Of a stretch of 64,000 bases of DNA, positions 1 through 11,913 are shown piece by piece. Position 1 is the first letter of the stretch; each line of letters starts with the position of its first letter. The notes under the pieces were generated by a model that worked only from the letters and a program-made list of their open reading frames with translations, made no database searches and had not been told where the DNA came from. The translations under genes were made by a program, and so were the position numbers. The stretch lies in the NCBI RefSeq assembly GCF_058153355.1, contig NZ_CM177019.1; one strand, 5' to 3'.

Positions 1-2
1 GT

Positions 3-389
3 TTTGATCTTCCGAGCGAAGATGAATGGGAATATTTATGTGGCGGTGGTTCCAGGACACTCTGGCGCTGGGGGAATAATTTCGACTATCAAATGAAAAT
101 CCCATTTATTACTTCAGAAGAACCAACAACCTGGGATATAGAATGGCCTAATCAGTTTGGGTTGCAGATTGCATTTGATCCCTATCTTCAGGAAATTATT
201 AATGATAAAGATATTCTTCTGAAAGGTGGCGATGGTGGGTGCAATCTCTGCGGAGGTGCTAATGTTGTATTAGGATTCTTGCCTGTGGCAACTTATTACA
301 AAGGATATAATAAACATACGGACGAATTAGAATATATGGATGACATTGGAGACAATTATACTTCTTATCGCAGAATAATTCGTTTATGA
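3..389 (+). CDS. 5'-truncated CDS at window edge; C-terminal part of a protein with a formylglycine-generating-enzyme-like (SUMF1/DUF323) signature
   Basis: Open frame runs from the window start to TGA at 387-389. Translation contains LPSEDEWEYLCGGG...WRWGN, resembling the LPTEAEWEYAARGG...PWGN core of FGE-like domains. Family call is from motif memory only. Confidence 0.35.
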   Translation, partial: FDLPSEDEWEYLCGGGSRTLWRWGNNFDYQMKIPFITSEEPTTWDIEWPNQFGLQIAFDPYLQEIINDKDILLKGGDGGCNLCGGANVVLGFLPVATYYKGYNKHTDELEYMDDIGDNYTSYRRIIRL

Positions 390-470
390 GTAAAAATTAT
401 ATTTCAGGACAAGAAGTTATGCTCGGGTCAAGCTAATGAATTGCTTAACGCAAGGAATAAAAACGTATTG

Positions 471-1952
471 ATGAACACTGGGAATTTCGAGTCGATACAA
501 ATCATGATCGACGCGCAAGAGTGGCGTAGCCTGCCGCTGCATCTGCGTCTGTATCACGCTTTTCGCCAATTGGTGATTTCCGGCGCATTGTCTGATGGCG
601 CAAAACTGCCTTCCGCTCGCGCACTGGCCCAGCAACTTGGTCTTTCCAGAGATACCATCGAAAATGCCTATTCCCAGCTCCACCGCGACGGTTTTATGGC
701 TCGCAGGCAGGGGGCCGGGAGTTTCGCCAGCCGCCAGGGGATACCGCATATTCAGGGCCAGCATGCGCAACCACCCTCGCCCGGACAAGTACCGGCTTTA
801 AGCGCTCGCTGGCAGCCAATTGCCGATCGCGCAGTCTCTTTCGATGCCCGCCAGATGCAGACCTTTACGCTTGGCCTGCCGGAAACGCGAAACTTCCCGC
901 TAAACATTTGGCAGAACTTTTCCCGCCAGATCCAACGTGAGCAGGCACATACGCTGATGTTAAATAGCGATCCGCAGGGCGAGCCACAGCTGCGCCAGCA
1001 AATTGCGCATTACCTTAATTTTGAACGCGGCGCGAAGGTAGATGCCGGGCAGATTGTGATTGTCAGCGGCGCACGGCAGGCGTTCTGGCTGTGCGGGCAA
1101 CTGCTGGCAGAGGCCGGACAGTCGGTGGCGATGGAAAATCCGGGCTATCCCGGCGCGCGTCAGGCGTTTTCTGCCGCACAGCTTAATCTTCTTCCCGTTG
1201 AAGTGGATGACGCCGGGATCCGGGTGGATAAACTGCCGCCCGCGCCGCTGGTTTACGTCACGCCCTCGCACCAGTTTCCTTCCGGTCATTTGCTCACGCT
1301 GGCGCGGCGTCATGCCCTGATTGCCTGGGCGCAGGCGCACAATGCGTGGATTATCGAAGACGACTACGACAGCGAATTTCACTACACCAGCGCGCCCGTC
1401 GCCTGTCTGCAAGGGTTAGACTGCGAGCAACGCACCCTGTATGTCGGCACTTTCAGCAAAACGCTCTATCCCGGCCTGCGCATCGGTTATCTGGTGGTGC
1501 CGACGTCGCTGGCTGCGCACTTTGCCGCCGCGCGTAATTTGCTTGATGGCGCAACGCCTGCGTTATCCCAACTAACGCTGGCGCGATTTATCGAGTCCGG
1601 TCATTTTGCCGCCCATATTCGCAACATGCGTAGTATGTATGCGGTGCGACAGGGGTGCCTGGCAGAGGCTATTCATCAGCACTTAAGTGAATGGGTCACG
1701 CCAGTGGTGACATCCGGTGGATTGCAAATGCCCTGCTGGCTGCATGGAGGTATTGATGAGCAACAGACGCTGAATGCCGCGCGCCGCGCCGGGTTAAACA
1801 TCGCCGGAATGCGCCAGTTCTGGCTGACGCACCCCGCGCACGCGGGCTGGCTGCTGGGATTCGCCGCCTTTACCCCCTACGAGATTGAACAGGGCGTCAA
1901 GCGTCTGCGGGCTGCATTATGCACTGAAAACGTGCGCCCAGCCGGGTCATAA
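471..1952 (+). CDS. MocR/GntR-family transcriptional regulator (N-terminal wHTH fused to a PLP aminotransferase-like domain)
   Basis: ORF-track 441..1952 begins at TTG. ATG at 471 sits about 13 nt after AGGAA. N-terminal HTH-like segment (LYHAFRQLVISGAL...LPSARALAQQLGLSRDTIENAY) followed by about 400 aa with aminotransferase-like features (SFSKTLYPGLRIGY). Visibly GC-rich. Confidence 0.75.
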   Translation: MNTGNFESIQIMIDAQEWRSLPLHLRLYHAFRQLVISGALSDGAKLPSARALAQQLGLSRDTIENAYSQLHRDGFMARRQGAGSFASRQGIPHIQGQHAQPPSPGQVPALSARWQPIADRAVSFDARQMQTFTLGLPETRNFPLNIWQNFSRQIQREQAHTLMLNSDPQGEPQLRQQIAHYLNFERGAKVDAGQIVIVSGARQAFWLCGQLLAEAGQSVAMENPGYPGARQAFSAAQLNLLPVEVDDAGIRVDKLPPAPLVYVTPSHQFPSGHLLTLARRHALIAWAQAHNAWIIEDDYDSEFHYTSAPVACLQGLDCEQRTLYVGTFSKTLYPGLRIGYLVVPTSLAAHFAAARNLLDGATPALSQLTLARFIESGHFAAHIRNMRSMYAVRQGCLAEAIHQHLSEWVTPVVTSGGLQMPCWLHGGIDEQQTLNAARRAGLNIAGMRQFWLTHPAHAGWLLGFAAFTPYEIEQGVKRLRAALCTENVRPAGS

Positions 1953-1956
1953 TCTC

Positions 1957-3003
1957 CTACGGGATGGTGTTGCAGGCAGCGGCAACCTGTTCCAGCGTCT
2001 GGCCTGCGCCAATAAATTCCACCTTATCGCCCGCTGTCGGCGTGACGGAGCTGGCATCGACCATAAAGCTGTCCATACAAACCCGCCCCAATACCGGTAA
2101 CCGCACGCCGCGCCAGCATACGCCCGCCGGAGGACGCATATTTCGCGGAACGCCATCCGCGTAACCCGCGGATATCGTAGCGATACGCAGCGGACGCGTG
2201 GCGGTAATCGTGCTGCCGTAGCCAACTGGCGTTCCCGCCGGGACATCCTGCACGCGCAGAATAGTTAGCGTCAGCGTAAAAGCCGGTTTTAGCGGCCTGG
2301 AAAACCACGGCTGGGCGACGCCAAACAGCGCAATCCCCGGACGGCAGAGATCTTCCCGCCAACCTGGTTGCAAAAACATTCCGCAGGAGTTCGCCAGCGA
2401 AAATCGGCTGCTGGGGAAAACCGTTTTTGCCTGCTGGAATAGCGCGTGTTGCGCCATATTTAACGCATGATCCGGCCTGTCGGCGTTCGCCAGATGGCTG
2501 ATGATATAGTCCGGCGCAGGCCAGTTACGCTCACGAAAAATCGCCGCCAGACGCATCAGTTGTTGCGGCATCATGCCCAGCCGCGACATACCAGAATCGA
2601 GCTGAATCATCACCGCGCTCCGTTGCTGGCGCGTTTCCAGTAACGTAAGCCACGCCATCACCTGGTCTACGGAATTGAGCAATGGCGTGATCTGCTGCGC
2701 GTAACAATACGCCATCGCCTCCGGCATAACCCCATTAAGCACTACCACCATCGCATCAGTGGGCAGGATTTTACGCAACGCCACGCCTTCAGAAAGCTGT
2801 GCGACAAAAAAGATCCGGCAGTTCGCCGCATACAGGGCGGGCGCAATCGCCTCCGCCCCCAGACCATAGGCATTGGCTTTCAACACCGCGCCACATTGCG
2901 CAGGGGCAGCATGGCGGGCCAGCATACGATAATTGTCGACGATGGCGGCGCGATTAACGCACATAACACCGCACGCCGCCTGGATTTCAGTAGAAGTCAT
3001 CAT
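1957..3003 (-). CDS. alanine racemase-family PLP enzyme (Alr paralog)
   Basis: 348-aa ORF with the AVLKANAYGLG PLP-lysine motif and overall colinearity with E. coli Alr. Start ATG overlaps the stop of the upstream SHMT-like gene (TAATG). GC-rich. Confidence 0.75.
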   Translation of the reverse strand: MMTSTEIQAACGVMCVNRAAIVDNYRMLARHAAPAQCGAVLKANAYGLGAEAIAPALYAANCRIFFVAQLSEGVALRKILPTDAMVVVLNGVMPEAMAYCYAQQITPLLNSVDQVMAWLTLLETRQQRSAVMIQLDSGMSRLGMMPQQLMRLAAIFRERNWPAPDYIISHLANADRPDHALNMAQHALFQQAKTVFPSSRFSLANSCGMFLQPGWREDLCRPGIALFGVAQPWFSRPLKPAFTLTLTILRVQDVPAGTPVGYGSTITATRPLRIATISAGYADGVPRNMRPPAGVCWRGVRLPVLGRVCMDSFMVDASSVTPTAGDKVEFIGAGQTLEQVAAACNTIP

Positions 3004-4238
3004 TAATAAGGCAACGGGTAGCGGTTGGTTAGTTGTATTACTTTTTGCTCAATATCGGCGCAAATGTCTGCAATATCTGATGAATTAATGGCGAAAATAA
3101 TTTCACTTATCCAGTCGGCAATCAGCGCAAAGTCATCCGCCTTCATCCCACGCGTGGTGCAGGCCGCGCTGCCAATACGAACGCCGGAGGTAATCAACGG
3201 CGGCTGCGGATCGCCCGGCAGGGTGTTTTTATTGACCGTGATCCCCGCCAGTTCGAGAAAGTACTCCACCTGTGCGCCGGTTAACCCCTGCGGGCGCAGG
3301 TCGATAATCCCCAGATGGCAGTCGGTGCCGTCCGTTAACAGCGTCAGGCCGCGCAGCGCCAGTTGCTGGCACATCGCCTGCGCATTGTCGATAACCTGCC
3401 CGGCATAACGTTTAAATTCCGGTTGTAATGCCTCGCCAAGCGCCACCGCTTTCGCTGCGATAACGTGCATCAACGGCCCGCCCTGCAAACCGGGAAAAAT
3501 GGCACTGTCGATTTTTTTCGCAAGCCTGGCGTCGTTGGTGAGGATCATGCCGCCGCGCGGCCCGCGCAATGTTTTATGCGTGGTGGTGGTGACCACATCA
3601 GCATACGCCAGCGGCGAAGGGAAACAGCCGCCCGCCACCAGCCCGGCAAAGTGCGCCATATCCACCAGCAAAATGGCGTCAACGGCATCGGCAATGCGGC
3701 GAAAACGGGCAAAATCATAGTGACGTGGATAAGCCGATCCTCCGGCAATAATCAACCGCGGGCGCTCACGCAGCGCGATCATCTCGACCTGATCCATATC
3801 AATCAAACCACTGTGCGCATCGACGCCATAGTGAAAAGCGTTAAACCATTTGCCGGATTGATTGACCGGCGAACCGTGCGTGAGATGCCCGCCGCATTGC
3901 AGGCTCATGCCAAGAATTTTGTCGCCGGGTTTCAGCAACGCCAGATGGACCGCCTGATTCGCCTGGCTGCCGGAGTGAGGCTGCACATTGACGTAACGCG
4001 CGCCAAAGAGCTGCTGCGCGCGGGTTATCGCCAGCATCTCAACCTCATCAATAAACTTACAGCCGCCGTAATAGCGATGCTGGTAATAACCTTCGGCGTA
4101 TTTATTGGTTAACACCGACCCCTGCGCCGCGAGAACGGCGGGGCTTACGAAATTCTCCGAGGCAATCAGTTCCAGCGACTGCTGCTGGCGCTGTTGCTCC
4201 TGGTTAATCAATGCAAAAAGTGGATCGTTATTTATCAT
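3003..4238 (-). CDS. serine hydroxymethyltransferase paralog (GlyA-like)
   Basis: Strong colinear similarity to GlyA ([57 protein letters not shown]). Start placed at MINNDPLF (ATG 4238), preceded by a GGGGGAAG RBS-like run; the ORF-track start at 4304 is an upstream extension. Confidence 0.85.
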
Positions 4239-4513
4239 GCGCTTCCCCCGCAAATTCATCATGCGATGATTTTCGCAGGGAAAACCTCGTCCGCACCCTG
4301 CCACTTTTTTGGGCAGGTGCAGACCACCTGTATGTCGTATTACTTAAAAGAAGAGAACATCGCTGACAATACCGGTATTAACTCCGAAATGAAGAGGGAA
4401 GAAGGCTCCGGCCATCTCCATGTGCGATTCTGGCTAGTAAAACATCATATTCCAGCTGCTCTTATCCGCCTACGTTATTGCATATACGGATAAGGCAGCC
4501 TCAATACGTACTT

Positions 4514-6067
4514 TTACTTGATATCTTTCACGCGCATACCGTTGATCTGTTCATCCGTGATGGTGTTACCCGCTTTAAAGTAATCAACCACCGCGTGATA
4601 AACGTAATAACCGCCCGTCGTATTGCGCGCTTTACCCTCGGTAAACGCGGTAAAACCATCTCCACCATCAGCAAGGAAACTCTGAGTGGCAATGTGGTAA
4701 ACCGTCGCATCTTCAATCGGTTTGCCATTCAAAGTCAGTGAGATAACCCGCTGACCAACCGGCTTGCTGCTGTCGTACTTCATTTCCAGGCCTTTCGATA
4801 CCTGTAAAACGCCATTACTTAAACTTGCGCCGTGTTCCATCAAACTGCGTAATTGTTTACCCGTGAGTTCCATCGTCACCAGTTCGTTGGGGAACGGGAA
4901 GGTACTGATGACGCCACCCATCGTAATTGCACCCGCCGGGATCTCATTGCGGATACCGCCAGAGTTGGTTAACGCCAACTGGGTATTTTTACCCGCCGCT
5001 GCCAGTAAAGCATCTGCCGCCAGGTTCCCGAGAGAAGCCGATTCACCATAGGCACGTTTTAGTTCAACCGGCGATTGCGCCACCGTTTGCTGCACGACTT
5101 CATCCAGCTTTTTATTCCAACTATCAATCACCTGTTTTGTTTGCGGATCGGGCTTCCACTCGTCGGCGTAAAGGGTTTTAAGCTCGAAGTTTTTCACCGT
5201 AAAAGTGTGCGGCTTCTCTTTGTAGTCCAGTACCAGTTTACCCACATCAATCCCACCGCTGTCAGTGGAGAGGATGAGCGTATTGCCGACTTTAATCGGT
5301 TCCGGCGTACCCACATGTGCATGCCCGGTGATCAAAATATCCAGCCCTTTCACCTGACTTGCCGTCTGAATATCTTTATCCAGTGCGCGGCGCACATCTG
5401 TGCCCCCCATACTGGACTGGCGGGCCGGAACACCTTCGTGAATCAGCGCAACGGTCAAATCAACCTTGCCTTTGAGTTCATCGATATAACGTTGTAGCCA
5501 TTTAATTTCATCACGCGCCTCAATACCCACTCGCGTTGCCGCAGATACCGTATCATTAAAGGCAAATACACCGTGCAAACCAATCACGCCAATTTTCACG
5601 CCGTCTTTTTCAATGATGGTATAGGGCTTATCCCAGAATGATTTACTGCTGTTCTGATAAAAAACATTACCCTGCACAATCGGGAATTTTGCCTGACTCA
5701 ACTGTAATAACGTATTGTCCCAGCCGTGATCAAATTCATGATTACCTATAGTGGCCGCATCGAACGGCATGGTATTCATAATATCGATAATCGCCTTGCC
5801 TTTAGTCAGGCTGCTGATATACGGCCCGGTAAAATAGTCACCCGCATCAAAAAACCAGGTCGCTTTGTTTTTAGCTTTTTCTTGTTTAACAAGCGTAGTG
5901 ATATTTGCCCAGCCGCCAATATCTCGTTTACCGTCAGCAATCCACGGCACTTTATAAGGCTCTACATGTGCATGGAGGTCGTTGGTATAAATGATGGTGA
6001 CATCTTTGGCGCAAGCCCAAAACGGCAGTGTTAATGCGATACCCGCAGCAAGCATTTTAATTTTCAT
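4514..6067 (-). CDS. secreted bifunctional metallophosphatase/5'-nucleotidase-family protein (UshA/CpdB-like), paralog 1
   Basis: N-terminal signal peptide ([20 protein letters not shown]). Metallophosphoesterase motifs NDLHAH, DAGDYF, GNHEFD, GHAH, followed by a 5'-nucleotidase C-terminal-like half. ATG 6067 follows GGAAGGGA; the ORF-track start 6073 is TTG. Confidence 0.85.
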
Positions 6068-6199
6068 AAACAATCCCTTCCAGTGAGATAAAGGATTGCT
6101 ACATTACGTTCTGAAAGGCTTTTTTATGTGAGAATACTCACATCCAGAGGCGATAACTGTAGGACAAAATCAACGACCTTATGAAATCGTTGGTGATAT

Positions 6200-7327
6200 A
6201 TGTCAAATCTGTTTGCGATTAATGTCTGTAAAACGTTCGGTTGTCGAAATTTGGGATTGGCCTCATCGGAAGATTACAGTTGGCCAGACTATAAACTGGG
6301 TTTTCCGGCACTGCACTGCCAGGCATGCGGAAGTTACCCCCCTTTGTTTGATGAACAACAATTTCGTGACTGGTTGTCAGTTCACATGACTGCGTGTGCC
6401 ATAGAAACAGGGCATTTTTGTCCATCATGCTATTGTAAAGAAAAGATTTTTTATGGCCACAACCCGCAGGGAACACAACGCGTTCAATGCCGTTCATGCA
6501 AAAAAGTCTGGACTCCGAAACAGCAGCCAGCAAGAGAAATTACGTATCCCCAGTCCATTGAAACCGTTCAACTGTTCATGCCCTTTCAAGGAGCCAGCGC
6601 AGTACAAAAGCTCTATGTTTTAGTCAGTCTTGACGCCACTCGTGGCAACATCCTTCATCTCTCCACGAATTATACGCAACATCAGACAGGAGACAGTCTG
6701 CGGTACAGTTACAGAGGCAATACAGAACCAACTGAGCACCATAGCGATATTGTGCAGAGGGTAGATATGCGTGAAGCGCAATTCTTGCGCCGGAGCCAGT
6801 TCGATGAAATTCAGTATGGCAGTGCTGTGCTCAAGCGCAACGGCAAGGGAGCCATACTACGCCCGGTTATCACGGCACACGGGCATTTCAGAATACTGAA
6901 AATCCGCTTTCCACATGTCAAAACGCATATCATTTCACACGAATGTTTTCTGAGAGGCGCAATTATTACAGCCTGGGCAGATCAGTTCCGCCAACAACAA
7001 GGCGAACTTTGGTTCGTAGAAGAAGAAATCAGCGACCGTAACGCTGATATTCCCTGGCATTTTCAGGGAACGACATACCATGGTTGGTGGCAAAATCAGT
7101 GGCAACGCTGGGGGCAGGGGAATAACAGCAAGATGGTCTGCCTGCTCACAGGAGTCTCCTTAGAAAGGGGCGCAAATGTTTCTCTGGCAACCAGTCGTTG
7201 CTTTATCACATGGCTGACAGACCAACACGACTTTACCCAAAGCGCGTTATTATCCGCAGGTCGCGTAACGAAAATGCTGACCTCACTGGCGTTAAAATAC
7301 AATGAATCGCTCAATCCATCTTGTTAG
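6200..7327 (+). CDS. hypothetical Cys-rich protein (zinc-ribbon-like N-terminus, W/Q-rich C-terminus)
   Basis: 375-aa ORF with CxxC pairs (CQACGS...CPSCYC...CRSCKK). No family I can assign with confidence. Flanked by AT-rich DNA and sits between nucleotidase paralogs. Confidence 0.5.
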   Translation: MSNLFAINVCKTFGCRNLGLASSEDYSWPDYKLGFPALHCQACGSYPPLFDEQQFRDWLSVHMTACAIETGHFCPSCYCKEKIFYGHNPQGTQRVQCRSCKKVWTPKQQPAREITYPQSIETVQLFMPFQGASAVQKLYVLVSLDATRGNILHLSTNYTQHQTGDSLRYSYRGNTEPTEHHSDIVQRVDMREAQFLRRSQFDEIQYGSAVLKRNGKGAILRPVITAHGHFRILKIRFPHVKTHIISHECFLRGAIITAWADQFRQQQGELWFVEEEISDRNADIPWHFQGTTYHGWWQNQWQRWGQGNNSKMVCLLTGVSLERGANVSLATSRCFITWLTDQHDFTQSALLSAGRVTKMLTSLALKYNESLNPSC

Positions 7328-7556
7328 TCAATACACTCGACAAACGACCATAAATTAATGGGATCACTATTTCTCATTTAATTAAATATATGAATGTATG
7401 ACTGAAAAATATAATCACAGTCAATGTTTAATTAATAACATTATTTGTTACTAAGATCACATAATACTTTCCTGACCTATGCTTACATAAAAATAAGACA
7501 CGGAGTTCCTTTTATTTAAATAATTCAACCAATGTAACAACCCCTATCAAGGAGGG

Positions 7557-9110
7557 ATGATGAGAACTGTATTTACGACTTTATCAGTCATATTCAGCGT
7601 GATGTTTTCTCACAGTATACTAGCTCAGGACGTTACTATTTATTATACGAATGATATTCACGCACATGTCAATCCGGCAAAAATTCCCGCTGTTGATAAG
7701 AACAGACTTGTAGGTGGTATGGCTAATATTGCAGGCATCGTTAATGAAGCGAAGAAAAAAAACAAAGATGTCTTTTTCTTTGATGCAGGCGACTATTTTA
7801 CCGGTCCGTATATCAGTACCCTGACCAAAGGTGAAGCTATTATTGATATCATGAACACCATGCCCTTTGATGCGGTATCCGTTGGTAATCACGAGTTCGA
7901 TCACGGCGTGCCCAATATGGTATCTCAGTTATCAAAAGCAAAATTCCCCATTCTGCTGGGAAATATTTACTACACCGATACAAATAAACCAGTTTGGGAT
8001 CATCCGTGGACCATTATCGAAAAAGATGGTTTAAAGATTGGTGTGATTGGATTGCATGGTGCATTCGCTTTCTATGATACAGTCGCGGCAAAAGCACGTG
8101 AAGGCGTAGAAGCCAGAGACGAAATTAAATATTTAAATAAAGCACTTGCAGAATTAAAAGGTAAAGTCGACATTACCGTTTTGCTAATTCACGAAGGTGT
8201 TCCGGCGCGTCAATCAAGCTTTGGTAGTAAAGATGTGGAGCGGCTACTACAGGCAGATATTGAGACAGCTAAAAAAGTGAATGGTGTTGATGTCTTAATT
8301 ACCGGTCACGCACATGTCGGAACACCGCAACCAATAAAAGTTAATAACACATTAATTGTATCTACCGATGCATACGGCACCGACATCGGAAAACTTGTGC
8401 TTGATTACAATCCGAAAACGAAGAAAATTGATAGTTATAATGGTGAGTTAATCACCATCTTCGCAGATCAATTTAAACCTGACACCATCGTTCAAAATAC
8501 TATCGATAAATGGAGTGCAAAGCTTAACAAAATAACACAGGAAGTTGTCGGCCATTCTCCCGTAGTTTTAACACGTGAGTATGGCAGTTCTTCTTCTACC
8601 GGTAACCTTATTCTTGATGCAATGATGGAAAAAACACCAGATGCCATTGCCGGATTTCAAAATAGCGGTGGGATGCGAGCTGATTTTCCTAAAGGTGATA
8701 TCACGCTGGGAGATGTTATTAGCACATTCCCCTTTAATAATGACCTCATCGAGATGGATTTGACGGGCCGCGATCTCAAATCGTTGATGACGCATGCAAC
8801 CAATCTAACTAACGGTGTGTTACAGGTTTCAAAAAGCGTTGCGGTTGTCTATGACAGCAAAAAACCACTGAACCAACGGTTAATCTCTTTCACCATTAAC
8901 GGCAAACCCGTGGAAGATAATCAAACATATCGTATTGTCACGCACTCCTTTTGTGCCAGTGGTGGTGACGGTTTTGAAGCATTTTTGAATGGAAAAAATG
9001 TGAAGACGATACCGGGAACAACCTCGGCGGAATCTATCATCGATTATTTCAAAAATCATAAACCTGTCACCCCAGACTTAACTAAACGAGTAATGGACGT
9101 CGCCAAATAA
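7557..9110 (+). CDS. secreted bifunctional metallophosphatase/5'-nucleotidase-family protein, paralog 2
   Basis: AAGGAGGG immediately upstream (ATG 7557 or 7560). Signal peptide, then NDIHAH, DAGDYF, GNHEFD, GHAH motifs; colinear with paralogs 1 and 3. Confidence 0.85.
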   Translation: MMRTVFTTLSVIFSVMFSHSILAQDVTIYYTNDIHAHVNPAKIPAVDKNRLVGGMANIAGIVNEAKKKNKDVFFFDAGDYFTGPYISTLTKGEAIIDIMNTMPFDAVSVGNHEFDHGVPNMVSQLSKAKFPILLGNIYYTDTNKPVWDHPWTIIEKDGLKIGVIGLHGAFAFYDTVAAKAREGVEARDEIKYLNKALAELKGKVDITVLLIHEGVPARQSSFGSKDVERLLQADIETAKKVNGVDVLITGHAHVGTPQPIKVNNTLIVSTDAYGTDIGKLVLDYNPKTKKIDSYNGELITIFADQFKPDTIVQNTIDKWSAKLNKITQEVVGHSPVVLTREYGSSSSTGNLILDAMMEKTPDAIAGFQNSGGMRADFPKGDITLGDVISTFPFNNDLIEMDLTGRDLKSLMTHATNLTNGVLQVSKSVAVVYDSKKPLNQRLISFTINGKPVEDNQTYRIVTHSFCASGGDGFEAFLNGKNVKTIPGTTSAESIIDYFKNHKPVTPDLTKRVMDVAK

Positions 9111-9150
9111 AATATCATTTATCAGTCTATTTATTTAACAAGGAATGCGA

Positions 9151-10770
9151 ATGAAAACAGTGCAGCGTACTTTACTTGCCGCAACATTGCTGACTATTTT
9201 TTCGGTCTCAGCCATGGCGCAGGATGTCACGATTATTTATACCAATGATCTTCACGCTCATGTGGATTCTTATAAAGTGCCGTATATCGCAGACGGAAAA
9301 CGCGACATTGGCGGCTTTGCCAATATATCTACTTTAGTAAAACAAGAGAAAGCGAAAAATAAAGCCACCTTTTATTTTGATGCTGGAGACTATTTCACCG
9401 GCCCTTATATCAGCAGTCTGACAAAGGGCGAAGCAATAATTGACATTATGAATACCATGCCTTTTGACGCAGTATCAATCGGTAATCATGAGTTTGACCA
9501 TGGCTGGGATAATGCCCTGCGACAATTAAGCAAAGCGAATTTTCCTGTTTTATTGGGCAATGTTTATCATAAAGAGAGTGAGAAACCCTTCTGGAACAAG
9601 CCCTACACCATCCTGGAAAAAGATGGCATCAAGATTGGTATTATTGGGCTACACGGCGTATTTGCATTTAATGATACGGTCTCGGAGCTCTCTCTCCAGG
9701 GACTCGATAATGACAATAATAACCGCTTTGATAAATCTTCCGAGACCCTTAAGAATCAGGGGATTGAAGCACGTGATGAAGTGAAGTATTTGCAGCATTA
9801 TATCGACGAGTTACGTGATAAGGTTGACCTCACTGTGGCGCTGGTTCATGAAGGCGTTCCGGCGCGTCAGTCCAGCATTGGCATTACAGATGTTAGACGC
9901 GCTCTTGATAAAGATATTCAAACCGCTAGCAAGGTGAAAGGATTGGATATTCTGATTACCGGGCATGCCCACGTCGGAACGCCAGAACCAATCAAAGTCG
10001 GCAACACCTTAATCCTTTCAACTGATAGTGGCGGTATCGATATTGGTAAATTAGTCCTTGATGTCAACCCTACAGCTCGTACCCATAAAATGAAGAGCTT
10101 TGAGCTGAAAACAGTTTATGCCGATGAATGGATACCCGATCCAACGACACAAAAAGTTATCAATGGCTGGAATAAAAAACTGGCGGATATTGTACGCCAA
10201 CCAGTGGGTGAATCATCGATTGCATTAACTCGCGCCTATGGTGAGTCATCGCAACTAGGCAACCTGTTTACCGATGCAATGCTTGTCGCTGCTCCGACTG
10301 CACAGATTGCATTGATAAACTCCGGCAGCTTACGTGCGGATATAAATGCAGGCACGATTACCTTTGGCGACATTACCAGTACATTCCCCTTCAAGAATGA
10401 ACTTACTGAAATGGATCTCAGCGGTAAGGATCTGCGTAACCTACTGGAACACGGGGCATCGCTTACCAATGGCATCCTGCAAATGTCAAAAGGCGCAGAA
10501 ATGCGCTATACCCCGCAGAAACCAGTAGGTCAGCGCATAGTATCTTTTAAAATTAATGGTGAAGAGATCGTTGATACGAATATTTACCATGTTGCAACAA
10601 CGACTTTCCTTGCACTGGGGGGCGATGGTTTTCTGGCATTCAAAGAAGGGAAAAATGTTCAGGTCCGCGCCGGAAAAAACATGTCCGATGTCGTGATCGA
10701 TTATTTGAAGAAAGGCCACAAGATTACGCCTGCACAGGTAAATGAAATGCGGGTGGACGTTAGCAAATAA
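9151..10770 (+). CDS. secreted bifunctional metallophosphatase/5'-nucleotidase-family protein, paralog 3
   Basis: ATG 9151 lies 7 nt after AAGGA (ORF-track start 9145). Very close to paralog 1 over most of its length but with an extra insert of about 25 aa (ELSLQGLDNDNNNRFDKSSETLKNQG). Followed by a hairpin terminator. Confidence 0.85.
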   Translation: MKTVQRTLLAATLLTIFSVSAMAQDVTIIYTNDLHAHVDSYKVPYIADGKRDIGGFANISTLVKQEKAKNKATFYFDAGDYFTGPYISSLTKGEAIIDIMNTMPFDAVSIGNHEFDHGWDNALRQLSKANFPVLLGNVYHKESEKPFWNKPYTILEKDGIKIGIIGLHGVFAFNDTVSELSLQGLDNDNNNRFDKSSETLKNQGIEARDEVKYLQHYIDELRDKVDLTVALVHEGVPARQSSIGITDVRRALDKDIQTASKVKGLDILITGHAHVGTPEPIKVGNTLILSTDSGGIDIGKLVLDVNPTARTHKMKSFELKTVYADEWIPDPTTQKVINGWNKKLADIVRQPVGESSIALTRAYGESSQLGNLFTDAMLVAAPTAQIALINSGSLRADINAGTITFGDITSTFPFKNELTEMDLSGKDLRNLLEHGASLTNGILQMSKGAEMRYTPQKPVGQRIVSFKINGEEIVDTNIYHVATTTFLALGGDGFLAFKEGKNVQVRAGKNMSDVVIDYLKKGHKITPAQVNEMRVDVSK

Positions 10771-10782
10771 TAAAAAAATTAT

Positions 10783-10816
10783 AATGCCATTCATTCACTG
10801 AATGGCATTATTTTCT
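10783..10816 (+). terminator. rho-independent terminator after nucleotidase paralog 3
   Basis: Palindrome AATGCCATTCA...TGAATGGCATT followed by a T-rich run. Confidence 0.6.
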
Positions 10817-10847
10817 CTAAATCAACAATAGATAATGAGATATATTT

Positions 10848-11708
10848 ATGTGTATAAAAAAGCACGGGATAGCTTTATCGATTCTATTAATACCTTGCAT
10901 TGGAAACGCTCAGGAAATTAAAAGTGAGGAAGGCTGGTTACATCAAAGCTTGAATGTCATTGGTCGCACAGACTCTCGCTTTGGCCCAAGGCTGACTAAC
11001 GACCTCTACCCTGAATATACTGTAGCAGGAAGAAAAGACTGGTTTGATTTTTATGGTTATGTTGATCTACCAAAATTCTTTGGCGTCGGCAGTCACTATG
11101 ATGTTGGGATCTGGGATGAGGGCTCACCACTATTTACGGAAATAGAACCTCGGTTTTCCATTGACAAATTGACCGGATTAAATCTTGCGTTCGGCCCTTT
11201 TAAAGAATGGTTCATTGCAAACAACTATGTCTATGATATGGGTGACAACCAGTCATCCCGGCAAAGTACATGGTATATGGGGCTTGGTACAGATATCGAC
11301 ACGGGTCTACCAATTAAGCTTTCTGCCAATATATACGCCAAGTATCAGTGGCAAAACTATGGTGCCGCTAATGAAAATGAATGGGACGGATATCGATTCA
11401 AAATAAAATATAGCATTCCTCTTACCCATTTATTCGGAGGGCGATTGGTATACAATAGTTTTACTAACTTTGATTTTGGATCCGATCTTGCGGACAAATC
11501 ACACAATAATAAACGAACCAGTAATGCTATTGCTTCAAGCCATATCCTTTCCCTGCTATATGAACACTGGAAATTTGCATTTACACTACGTTATTTTCAC
11601 AACGGTGGACAATGGAATGCTGGGGAGAAAGTTAACTTCGGAGATGGTCCATTTGAATTAAAAAACACAGGATGGGGAACCTATACTACTATTGGTTATC
11701 AATTTTAA
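10848..11708 (+). CDS. Tsx-family nucleoside-specific outer-membrane channel (Tsx paralog)
   Basis: 286-aa ORF with signal peptide and long colinear identity to E. coli Tsx ([70 protein letters not shown], terminal F). Confidence 0.85.
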
Positions 11709-11885
11709 ATCAGGTGATGTTTTAGATATTTTTACTTAATGCCATTTTGTAATTGTCATAAATAACTTCACCATTCACACTGTGAATTCATCGCTCAACA
11801 CAAAAGCCCCCTTATTACCGGGGCACTGACCAAAGGCAAAATGACAATCAATCACCACCTCCGCAGGAGGTGGTTTAGAGGTGAC

Positions 11886-11913
11886 AACAAAAGCTGGCAA
11901 CTGCCAGCTTTTG
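11886..11913. terminator. palindromic hairpin downstream of metL (likely bidirectional terminator)
   Basis: ACAAAAGCTGGCAACTGCCAGCTTTTGT palindrome just past the metL stop. A second palindrome (ACCACCTCCGCAGGAGGTGGT) lies at 11854-11874. Confidence 0.55.

What the first reader, a model, noticed from the sequence alone, without database searches (positions are those of the whole stretch)
4514..10770. Inverted orientation of the most similar nucleotidase paralogs around the Cys-rich ORF
Paralog 1 (minus strand, 4514-6067) and paralog 3 (plus strand, 9151-10770) are near-colinear at the protein level with long identical runs, yet face in opposite directions and bracket the Cys-rich ORF and paralog 2. 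Paralog 3 also carries an extra insert of about 25 aa (ELSLQGLDNDNNNRFDKSSETLKNQG) in the linker after the metallophosphatase core. Long inverted homologous segments are substrates for recombinational inversion or gene conversion, so this locus may be structurally variable between strains. The insert could mark a specificity-determining loop.
Basis: seen in the sequence. Interest (0 to 1): 0.5.

Follow-up and report, generated by a model that had tools for sequence, protein, structure and literature searches.

The report
Diverged inverted nucleotidase paralogs, rare gene conversion
Two old, diverged copies of a periplasmic 5'-nucleotidase gene face each other in an accessory island of E. coli; no complete genome examined shows them flipping the DNA between them, but in two draft genomes a ~400-base piece of one copy, carrying its extra loop, was pasted into the other.

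Summary
The window is the E. coli metF–metL accessory slot.

- **Similarity.** p1 and p3 are the closest pair, at 68% amino-acid identity. DNA identity is only 67%, the longest exact run is 17 nt, and synonymous sites are saturated throughout. Selection on the protein, not recent exchange, explains the identical protein runs.
- **No inversion.** All 658 complete genomes carrying p3 (of 5,426) have the same colinear layout. Citrobacter enshiensis has it too.
- **Rare gene conversion.** Two draft E. coli assemblies carry intact p1 genes with a 394-nt or 445-nt p3-derived tract that includes the insert. Backgrounds and junctions differ, so the events look independent.
- **Deletion hybrid.** One metagenome scaffold holds a p2::p3 hybrid.
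- **Main variability.** It is modular: empty slot, p1+Cys ORF only, the 5-gene form, or the 5-gene form plus an alr/SHMT/GntR module.
- **The insert.** It adds a net 20 aa inside the metallophosphatase domain, not in the linker. It is conserved across genera and modelled as a low-confidence loop.

The p1 orthologue is already solved (PDB 3IVD/3IVE). This is an ordinary locus with a modest new example of homeologous gene conversion.

The parts
4514..6067 (-). p1: periplasmic 5'-nucleotidase paralog (517 aa), orthologue of CFT073 c4898 (PDB 3IVD/3IVE). Transcribed divergently from the Cys-rich ORF.
   Evidence: ORF. Pfam PF00149 + PF02872. 3IVD hit at E=0 over residues 19-517. RefSeq annotation.
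6200..7327 (+). Cys-rich ORF (375 aa), no Pfam family. Always paired divergently with p1.
   Evidence: Weak hit to the IS1 transposase N-terminus: E=4e-4, 20 bits against a cutoff of 100. The p1/Cys pair also occurs alone in about 1,185 genomes and in the E. albertii-type locus.
7557..9110 (+). p2: 5'-nucleotidase paralog (517 aa), 56-57% aa identity to p1 and p3.
9151..10770 (+). p3: 5'-nucleotidase paralog (539 aa from the annotated ATG) carrying the insert. 40 nt downstream of p2.
   Evidence: Present at full length and >=95.5% identity in 658 of 5,426 complete genomes.
9685..9762 (+). Insert-coding segment of p3 (ELSLQGLDNDNNNRFDKSSETLKNQG). It adds a net 20 aa relative to p1 and lies inside the metallophosphatase domain.
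   Evidence: pLDDT <55 over residues 172-205 of the AF2 model. Conserved in Citrobacter, E. albertii and Enterobacter orthologues.
10848..11708 (+). Tsx-like nucleoside-specific outer-membrane channel.
   Evidence: Pfam PF03502, E=5e-70. NCBIfam NF011686, 492 bits against a cutoff of 311.
5544..6004 (-). p1 arm of the best inverted homology block (461 nt, 76% complementary to 9223-9683).
   Evidence: I1; blastn 75.9%.
9223..9683 (+). p3 arm of the best inverted homology block.
   Evidence: I1.
5226..5528 (-). p1 arm of the second inverted homology block (303 nt, 75% complementary to 9759-10061).
   Evidence: I3.
9759..10061 (+). p3 arm of the second inverted homology block.
   Evidence: I3.
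9445..9461 (+). Longest exact p1/p3 identity run (17 nt, ATTATGAATACCATGCC; p1 copy at 5766-5782). The left junction of conversion event 1 lies in it.
9462..9855 (+). Donor interval of conversion event 1 (GCA_001520995.1). This p3 segment replaces p1 positions 5432-5765 in the mosaic allele.
   Evidence: 164 consecutive p3-type sites and 1 mismatch in 394 nt against the window's p3.
9513..9957 (+). Equivalent donor interval of conversion event 2 (GCA_001520215.1, B2-type alleles; p3 gene nt 363-807). It replaces p1 gene nt 354-738, which corresponds to window 5330-5714.
   Evidence: 177 consecutive p3-type sites and 0 mismatches in 445 nt against CFT073 p3.

Best explanation
**What the cluster is**
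p1, p2 and p3 are anciently diverged paralogs of a periplasmic 5'-nucleotidase. They have a metallophosphatase N-domain and a 5'-nucleotidase C-domain, and they are not UshA orthologues. Together with a Tsx-like porin they form a horizontally acquired, low-GC accessory island in the E. coli metF–metL slot. Inferred function: nucleotides are dephosphorylated in the periplasm, with nucleosides crossing the outer membrane through the porin.

**Why p1 is inverted**
The opposite orientation comes from how the island is built, not from a recent inversion. p1 and the Cys-rich ORF form a conserved, divergently transcribed two-gene unit that also exists on its own. p2-p3-tsx is a second, co-oriented module joined downstream of the Cys ORF.

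**Why the proteins still look alike**
The long identical protein runs are kept by purifying selection on catalytic and structural motifs. At DNA level the copies are 67% identical with saturated synonymous sites. They are therefore poor substrates for RecA-dependent exchange, and the orientation is fixed in every complete genome examined.

**What does happen, rarely**
Non-reciprocal (inferred) homeologous gene conversion from p3 into p1 has occurred at least twice independently. Each event copied about 400-450 nt of the central metallophosphatase region, including the 66-nt insert-coding heterology. The tract ends lie in or next to the two best-conserved DNA blocks (76-80% identity).

**Shown versus inferred**
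- Shown: anatomy, divergence, absence of inversion, the mosaic alleles and their junctions.
- Inferred: the conversion pathway (gap repair/SDSA or replication template switching, possibly in a mismatch-repair-deficient background), the enzymes' substrates, and any role of the insert.
For: **Identity and context**
- The window is the E. coli metF–metL slot.
- All three paralogs match PF00149 + PF02872.
- The Foldseek top hit is 3IVD/3IVE (c4898 with uridine/cytidine), TM 0.85-0.91.
- UshA equivalog scores are 153-165 bits against a cutoff of 600.
- Gene GC is 40-48% in the island against 55-58% for metL/metB.

**Divergence**
- 67% nt identity, with the longest exact run 17 nt.
- pS is 0.64-1.09 in every 40-codon window, including windows with 93-97% aa identity.
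- Orthologues between genera (87-92% aa) are far closer than paralogs within a genome (67-69%), so there is no concerted evolution.

**Stability**
- 658 genomes have p3, 658 have Cys+p2 in one place, and 658 have >=80% of the 7.6-kb locus colinear in one place.
- Citrobacter enshiensis has the identical layout.

**Modularity**
- About 1,185 genomes have only p1+Cys ORF.
- The E. albertii-type locus keeps the divergent Cys/p1 pair but places the other paralogs downstream of p1.

**Conversions**
- P0015 (L004) and P0121 (L005) sit at the p1 position next to metF.
- The tracts are 394 nt and 445 nt. Each matches the p3 allele of its own lineage: 1/394 and 0/445 mismatches.
- Junction microhomologies differ: 17/8 nt in the first event and 2/5 nt in the second.
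- The L004 contig ends 26 nt into the sequence shared by the mosaic and p3, as expected for a true duplicated tract.
- A p2::p3 single-crossover hybrid has its junction in an 11-nt identity run.
Against: - The mosaics come only from two short-read draft assemblies, which appear from their WGS accessions to be of the same era. I could not inspect reads.
- The rest of p3 in those genomes is not in hand, so non-reciprocity is inferred from a contig break only.
- No mosaic is present in 1,843 p1-bearing complete genomes. The events are therefore very rare or short-lived.
- Low-frequency inversions within populations cannot be seen in consensus assemblies.
- That the three sets of 658 genomes are the same genomes is inferred from equal counts, not from lists.
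- The physiological role of the cluster is inferred from domain content and PDB ligand names only.
Confidence: 0.8

Rival explanations
1. The inverted paralogs act as a recombinational inversion switch. Homologous exchange between p1 and p3 flips the Cys-ORF/p2 segment, so strains or subpopulations differ in orientation.
For: Inverted homology blocks of 461 nt (76%) and 303 nt (75%) exist. In a related locus of another species (E. albertii type) the p1 and p3 orthologues are in direct orientation, so relative orientation has changed at least once over long evolutionary time.
Against: - None of the 658 complete genomes with both genes deviates from the colinear layout.
- The layout is the same in Citrobacter.
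- The longest exact run is 17 nt and dS is saturated.
- No single-crossover p1::p3 hybrid appears among the 120 best database clusters.
- No recombinase gene lies in the locus.
- The albertii-type layout is at another chromosomal site. It differs by module order, not by the inversion that a p1 x p3 exchange would produce.
Confidence: 0.03
2. The p1/p3 mosaic alleles are artefacts of short-read assembly or of contamination, and the paralogs never exchange sequence.
For: - Both mosaics come from draft assemblies.
- None is in a complete genome or in Logan re-assemblies; the cluster's sources are NCBI only.
- The L005 contig is short (6.6 kb) and ends inside p2.
Against: - Each mosaic needs two template switches between sequences that share at most 17 nt (event 1) or 2-5 nt (event 2) at the junctions. 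That is below any usual assembler k-mer.
- The two mosaics have different backbones (window type and B2 type), different junctions, and lineage-matched donor tracts.
- Both ORFs are intact at 537 aa.
- The contig break in p3 falls exactly at the tract boundary, which fits a real repeat.
Confidence: 0.1
3. The mosaics arose by horizontal import of a foreign insert-bearing allele, for example from E. albertii or Enterobacter, whose insert-bearing protein has a p1-like signal peptide. On this reading there was no exchange between the resident p1 and p3.
For: Insert-bearing orthologues with p1-like N-termini exist in other genera (P0008, P0010, P0011).
Against: - The tracts are 393/394 and 445/445 identical to the p3 allele of the same E. 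coli lineage.
- The foreign orthologues are only 84-88% identical at protein level.
- The backbone outside each tract is the resident p1 allele: 2 mismatches in 1,171 nt for event 2.
Confidence: 0.02

Closest known systems
PDB 3IVD / 3IVE, putative 5'-nucleotidase c4898 of E. coli CFT073 (structural-genomics entries, uridine and cytidine complexes)
   Same: p1 is its orthologue: phmmer E=0 over residues 19-517. p3 is 67% identical to it, and the p3 model superposes with TM 0.85-0.91.
   Different: p3 has the net 20-aa insert between 3IVD residues ~162 and ~163. I found no paper on the protein in the library under the tag c4898, the other guessed neighbouring locus tags, or 3IVD.
UshA (E. coli periplasmic UDP-sugar hydrolase/5'-nucleotidase) and CD73 ecto-5'-nucleotidase family
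   Same: - Same two-domain architecture (PF00149 + PF02872).
- The metal-ligand motifs DxH, GD, GNHE, H and GHxH are conserved.
- Same fold.
- N-terminal signal peptides are present.
   Different: - Only 20-24% identical to UshA and CD73.
- Scores are far below the UshA equivalog cutoff.
- They form a distinct accessory subfamily present in three linked copies.
Ectopic gene conversion between diverged or inverted bacterial paralogs (for example tufA/tufB in Salmonella; named from my own knowledge, not tested here)
   Same: A non-reciprocal patch moves between two chromosomal paralogs in inverted orientation without inverting the interval.
   Different: - tufA/tufB are about 99% identical and evolve in concert.
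- Here the partners are only 67-80% identical and there is no concerted evolution.
- The tracts carry a 66-nt heterology, and the junctions have only 2-17 nt of identity.
E. coli K-12 Tsx nucleoside channel
   Same: The downstream gene matches the Tsx family above the curated cutoffs.
   Different: It is an extra, island-encoded paralog linked to the nucleotidases, not the core tsx gene.

Membership tests
5'-nucleotidase / UshA-CD73 superfamily (metallophosphatase + 5'-nucleotidase C-terminal domain) | N-terminal calcineurin-like metallophosphatase domain and C-terminal 5'-nucleotidase substrate-binding domain, both above Pfam gathering scores. | tested here: met
   PF00149 scores 42-50 bits (cutoff 21.5) and PF02872 scores 126-138 bits (cutoff 23.6) for p1, p2 and p3.
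5'-nucleotidase / UshA-CD73 superfamily (metallophosphatase + 5'-nucleotidase C-terminal domain) | Conserved dimetal-site motifs (D-x-H, G-D, G-N-H-E, H, G-H-x-H). | tested here: met
   NDLHAH, DAGDYF, GNHEFD, (V/I)HEG and GHAH are present in p1 and p3. Their key residues (D, H, N) are invariant in the 21-sequence alignment. The mapping to UshA ligands is from my knowledge of UshA.
5'-nucleotidase / UshA-CD73 superfamily (metallophosphatase + 5'-nucleotidase C-terminal domain) | Two-domain fold joined by a long linker helix. | tested here: met
   The AF2 model (pTM 0.79) has helix 333-351 between the domains. Foldseek hits 3IVD, 2Z1A, CD73 and UshA at probability 1.00.
5'-nucleotidase / UshA-CD73 superfamily (metallophosphatase + 5'-nucleotidase C-terminal domain) | Nucleotide phosphohydrolase activity. 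| not testable with these tools
   The only indirect evidence is the PDB titles of 3IVD/3IVE, which name uridine and cytidine as ligands.
UshA proper (NCBIfam NF007109 equivalog) | Score at or above the curated equivalog cutoff of 600 bits. | tested here: not met
   153, 165 and 156 bits for p1, p2 and p3.
Invertible DNA segment driven by inverted repeats | Inverted repeats with identity tracts long enough for efficient homologous exchange (at or above the bacterial MEPS, a block of at most 30 identical bp per PMC8918686). | tested here: not met
   The longest exact run is 17 nt and the arms are 75-76% identical. MEPS as reviewed in PMC8918686.
Invertible DNA segment driven by inverted repeats | Both orientations observed among related genomes at the same locus. 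| tested here: not met
   658 of 658 complete E. coli genomes are colinear. Citrobacter enshiensis has the same layout.
Invertible DNA segment driven by inverted repeats | Associated site-specific recombinase or invertase. | tested here: not met
   No recombinase domain appears in any ORF of 4300-11900. The Cys ORF has only a sub-threshold match to the IS1 transposase N-terminus (20 bits against 100).
Ectopic (inter-paralog) gene conversion | Recipient allele with a contiguous block of donor-type sites flanked by recipient-type sites. | tested here: met
   164 of 164 and 177 of 177 consecutive informative sites are p3-type within a p1 backbone.
Ectopic (inter-paralog) gene conversion | The tract matches the resident donor copy of the same lineage. 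| tested here: met
   1 mismatch in 394 nt against window-type p3, and 0 in 445 nt against CFT073-type p3. Each backbone matches its own lineage.
Ectopic (inter-paralog) gene conversion | The donor copy is unchanged in the same genome (non-reciprocal transfer). | tested here: inconclusive
   The L004 contig holds the first 320 nt of p3 and breaks at the tract boundary, which fits a duplicated tract. The rest of p3 in those assemblies could not be retrieved.
Ectopic (inter-paralog) gene conversion | Confirmation by reads or long-read assembly. | not testable with these tools
   No read access. No complete genome carries a mosaic.

The most novel reading that the evidence does not exclude
The two independent p3-to-p1 transfers are not neutral accidents. 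On this reading, the insert-bearing central segment of the metallophosphatase domain behaves as an exchangeable cassette. Selection would repeatedly favour moving it onto the separately regulated p1 gene, because the insert changes substrate range, partner binding or regulation of the periplasmic nucleotidase.
Probability: 0.08. Interest if true: 0.5.

Novelty: new member of a known kind. Interest (0 to 1): 0.3.

Why it matters
- **Scan triage.** A 'long inverted homologous segment' seen at protein level need not be a recombination substrate. Here selection on the protein hides fully saturated DNA divergence, and the orientation is fixed.
- **Recombination biology.** The two mosaics are natural examples of homeologous gene conversion between partners only 67-80% identical. 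Their junctions have 2-17 nt of identity and they carry a 66-nt heterology. Such events are seldom documented in wild E. coli and hint at gap repair or template switching, possibly in mutator backgrounds.
- **E. coli genomics.** The metF–metL slot has at least four gene-content states. The 5-gene nucleotidase/Tsx island is typical of B2 strains (CFT073, Nissle, LF82, E2348/69) and remains functionally uncharacterised despite a solved structure.

Tried and rejected
- **Literature.** Searches for c4898, for other CFT073 locus tags I guessed for the neighbouring genes, and for 3IVD returned only unrelated papers. One search failed on syntax.
- **Second 'place' in B2 genomes.** The p1 query gave a second place in 561 B2-type genomes, which looked like a possible conversion patch. 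Local BLAST showed it is a weak p1/p2 cross-hit, 75% over 326 nt.
- **Albertii-type locus in E. coli.** I tested whether the four-nucleotidase locus also occurs in E. coli and could be an alternative donor. It is not in any complete E. coli genome.
- **Insert-to-active-site distance.** I wanted to measure this in the AF2 model, but model coordinates are not exposed to the script environment. Only pLDDT and secondary structure could be used.
- **Mosaic scan of database hits.** A scan of 121 database proteins also flagged P0008, P0010 and P0011, which are p3-like with a p1-like signal peptide. These are orthologues from other species, not E. coli recombinants. P0019, P0021, P0030 and P0033 were noise from distant homologues.
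- **Metagenome junction scan.** I considered scanning metagenome contigs with exact junction patterns. I rejected it because each event has its own junction and allele background.

Full report
**1. What is there**

ORF listing and domain scans give this order:

| Feature | Coordinates | Strand | Notes |
|---|---|---|---|
| GntR/PLP regulator | 441-1952 | + | |
| Alanine racemase | 1957-3003 | - | |
| SHMT | 3003-4304 | - | |
| p1 | 4514-6067 | - | 517 aa |
| Cys-rich ORF | 6200-7327 | + | 375 aa, no Pfam family |
| p2 | 7557-9110 | + | |
| p3 | 9151-10770 | + | 539 aa |
| Tsx-like porin | 10848-11708 | + | |
| metL, metB | from 11925 | - | |

- Megablast against 5,426 complete E. coli genomes places the window in the metF–metL interval of the E. 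coli chromosome.
- All three paralogs carry PF00149 + PF02872.
- All three start with Sec-type signal peptides ending in A-x-A just before (K/Q)DVTI.
- None reaches any NCBIfam equivalog cutoff; for UshA the scores are 153-165 bits against 600.
- p1 is the orthologue of CFT073 c4898, solved as PDB 3IVD/3IVE with uridine and cytidine bound.
- Island genes have 40-48% GC against 55-58% for metL/metB. The alr/SHMT/GntR module is 56-59%.

**2. Checking the observation**

- p1/p3 is the closest pair: 68% aa identity against 56-57% for pairs with p2.
- The two are colinear and share identical runs of up to 36 aa.
- They are in opposite orientation and bracket the Cys ORF and p2, as stated.
- The quoted insert peptide is real (9685-9762). 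It is a 25-residue segment replacing 5 residues, so the net gain is 20 aa.
- The insert lies inside the metallophosphatase domain, between GNHEF (residue 111) and the HEG/GHAH metal-ligand motifs (232/271).
- In the model (pTM 0.79) residues 172-205 have pLDDT below 55, which indicates a flexible or unmodelled loop.
- The insert is conserved (ELS[LI]QGLDN[DN]…RF[DS]KS…LKNQ) in p3 orthologues of Citrobacter, E. albertii and Enterobacter at 81-88% identity. It is absent from all p1-like and p2-like proteins.
- All 658 E. coli p3 genes align at full length with at least 95.5% identity, so the insert is fixed.

**3. Are the copies recombination substrates?**

- At DNA level p1 and p3 are 67% identical.
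- The best inverted blocks are 461 nt at 76% and 303 nt at 75%. The longest exact match is 17 nt.
- Nei-Gojobori analysis gives pS = 0.79 overall and 0.64-1.09 in every 40-codon window. This holds even in windows with 93-97% aa identity.
- Synonymous sites are therefore saturated everywhere, and typical alleles contain no recent conversion tract.
- Orthologues between genera (87-92% aa) are much closer than paralogs within a genome (67-69%), so there is no concerted evolution.
- RecA-dependent exchange in bacteria needs a block of strict identity, the MEPS. PMC8918686 (citing Shen & Huang 1986) describes the bacterial MEPS as a matching stretch of at most 30 identical bp; about 23-27 bp is my recollection of the original paper, not checked here. 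MutS/MutL abort heteroduplexes that contain mismatches. The 17-nt maximum falls below this.

**4. Inversion test**

- Among the 5,426 complete genomes, 658 carry p3.
- 658 carry Cys ORF + p2 in one piece.
- 658 hold at least 80% of the 7.6-kb locus colinear in a single place.
- An inversion through p1 x p3 would leave at most about half of the query colinear, so no p3-bearing genome is inverted. The identity of the three sets is inferred from equal counts.
- Citrobacter enshiensis has the same metF–p1(-)–Cys(+)–p2–p3–tsx–metL layout.
- No single-crossover p1::p3 hybrid appears among the best 120 protein clusters out of 5.8 billion sequences.

**5. Why p1 is inverted**

- p1 + Cys ORF is a conserved, divergently transcribed unit with a 132-nt spacer. 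It occurs alone between metF and metL in about 1,185 genomes.
- The same pair is kept in an E. albertii-type locus in the kdsA–chaA region. There the order is Cys(-), p1 orthologue(+), two p2-like genes, tsx, then the p3 orthologue(+).
- In that locus p1 and p3 are in direct orientation. It is a different chromosomal site, the module order differs, and the locus is absent from complete E. coli genomes.
- The orientation therefore reflects modular assembly of the island.
- Gene-content states of the slot:

| State | Complete genomes |
|---|---|
| Empty | about 3,580 |
| p1 + Cys ORF only | about 1,185 |
| 5-gene island | about 655 |
| 5-gene island plus hypothetical/GntR/alr/SHMT module | 3 |

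- This modular variation is the real structural variability of the locus.

**6. Unexpected: rare gene conversion**

In the homologue list one cluster (P0015, P0121; both E. coli, NCBI) was 75% identical to p3 but p1-like at both ends. Both genes lie at the p1 position, next to metF and divergent from the Cys ORF.

| | Event 1 | Event 2 |
|---|---|---|
| Assembly | GCA_001520995.1 | GCA_001520215.1 |
| Backbone | window-type alleles | B2/CFT073-type alleles |
| Consecutive p3-type informative sites | 164 | 177 |
| Tract (p3 gene nt) | 312-705 (window 9462-9855) | 363-807 |
| Mismatches to lineage-matched p3 | 1 in 394 nt | 0 in 445 nt |
| Left junction | inside the 17-nt run ATTATGAATACCATGCC | 2 nt of identity |
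| Right junction | in GTTCCGGC (8 nt) | 5 nt of identity |
| Other | | 2 mismatches in 1,171 nt to CFT073 p1 outside the tract; a two-site p3-like micro-patch about 55 nt upstream |

- The different backgrounds, lineage-matched donors and different junctions indicate two independent intragenomic events.
- Both tracts start and end in or beside the two best-conserved DNA blocks (76-80% identity). Both carry the 66-nt insert-coding heterology across.
- Both mosaic ORFs are intact at 537 aa.
- The event-1 contig stops at p3 nt 320, which is 26 nt into the sequence shared by the mosaic and p3. That is what a short-read assembler does at a genuine repeat.
- No complete genome carries either mosaic. 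The best hits are split in two pieces at 93-95% identity, and the 658 'second places' are simply p3.
- A metagenome scaffold (L006) carries a p2::p3 hybrid with a single crossover in the 11-nt run CCGGCGCGTCA. It deletes about 1.66 kb including the insert, and it has a 3' frameshift. This is an unequal-exchange product between the tandem copies, seen only once.

**7. Mechanism**

- Shown: the mosaics, their junctions and the lineage-matched donors.
- Inferred: a non-reciprocal copy-in, by double-strand-gap repair/SDSA or by replication template switching between the inverted copies.
- Inferred: the copy-in was anchored in the two conserved blocks and possibly favoured by mismatch-repair deficiency. 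PMC8918686 notes that shorter MEPS suffice without MutS/L.
- An assembly artefact is unlikely (about 10%), because two switches at 2-17 nt of identity are below assembler k-mers and the two cases differ.
- Foreign import is very unlikely given 445/445 identity to the resident p3.

**8. Comparison with known systems, and verdict**

- The genes belong to the UshA/CD73 5'-nucleotidase superfamily. Domains, motifs and fold were tested and met.
- They are not UshA equivalogs; that test was not met.
- The locus fails all three defining features of an invertible segment.
- It satisfies the sequence criteria of ectopic gene conversion.
- The cluster is annotated in RefSeq and p1 is in the PDB. To my knowledge, and in the searched library, the mosaics are not described.
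- Overall this is an ordinary accessory locus.

Noticed in passing
window 1-4304: The left module (end of a hypothetical gene, GntR/PLP-family regulator, alanine racemase, second SHMT) has 56-59% GC. It occurs in only 3 of 5,426 complete E. coli genomes. In strain 2013C-4282 the SHMT is annotated as a pseudogene with an internal stop, whereas the window has an intact 433-aa ORF.
   Followed up: partly
window 6200-7327: The Cys-rich ORF has no Pfam family. Residues 74-136 weakly resemble the N-terminal zinc-ribbon part of IS1 transposase (E=4e-4, 20 bits against a cutoff of 100). It is always divergently paired with p1, which suggests a DNA-binding regulator derived from a transposase.
   Followed up: partly
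window 10781-10811: A 13-bp-stem perfect hairpin (ATAATGCCATTCA…TGAATGGCATTAT) with T-rich flanks on both strands lies in the 77-nt gap between p3 and the tsx-like gene. It could be a terminator, an attenuator or a protein-binding palindrome.
   Followed up: no
L007 1741-10611 (Logan SRR15338143; protein named E. albertii): A related island sits in the kdsA–chaA region with four nucleotidase paralogs. The order is Cys ORF(-), p1 orthologue (92% aa), two p2-like genes (68-72%), tsx-like (59%), and an insert-bearing p3 orthologue (87%) with a p1-like signal peptide. It is absent from complete E. coli genomes.
   Followed up: partly
L006 377-1855 (ENA metagenome scaffold ERZ28638772): A p2::p3 hybrid gene with a single crossover in CCGGCGCGTCA deletes about 1.66 kb and has a frameshifted 3' end. 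The 'VPARQSS' coding stretch is also the right junction of conversion event 1, so it may be a local exchange hotspot.
   Followed up: partly
L003 10701-11831 (E. coli WP4-S18-ESBL-09): In the two-gene variant of the slot, homology to the window ends inside the Cys ORF (about window position 7119-7140). The 3' end of that ORF differs and overlaps the 3' end of metL. p1 and Cys there are only 87-89% identical to the window, so this is a distinct allele lineage.
   Followed up: no
L002 12272-12588 (CFT073 p2) vs window 5536-5854 (p1): Window-type p1 and B2-type p2 produce a megablast hit (75% over 326 nt), which implies a shared exact word of at least 28 nt across lineages. That is longer than any exact run between paralogs within the window itself, where the maximum is 20 nt for p1/p2.
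   Followed up: no
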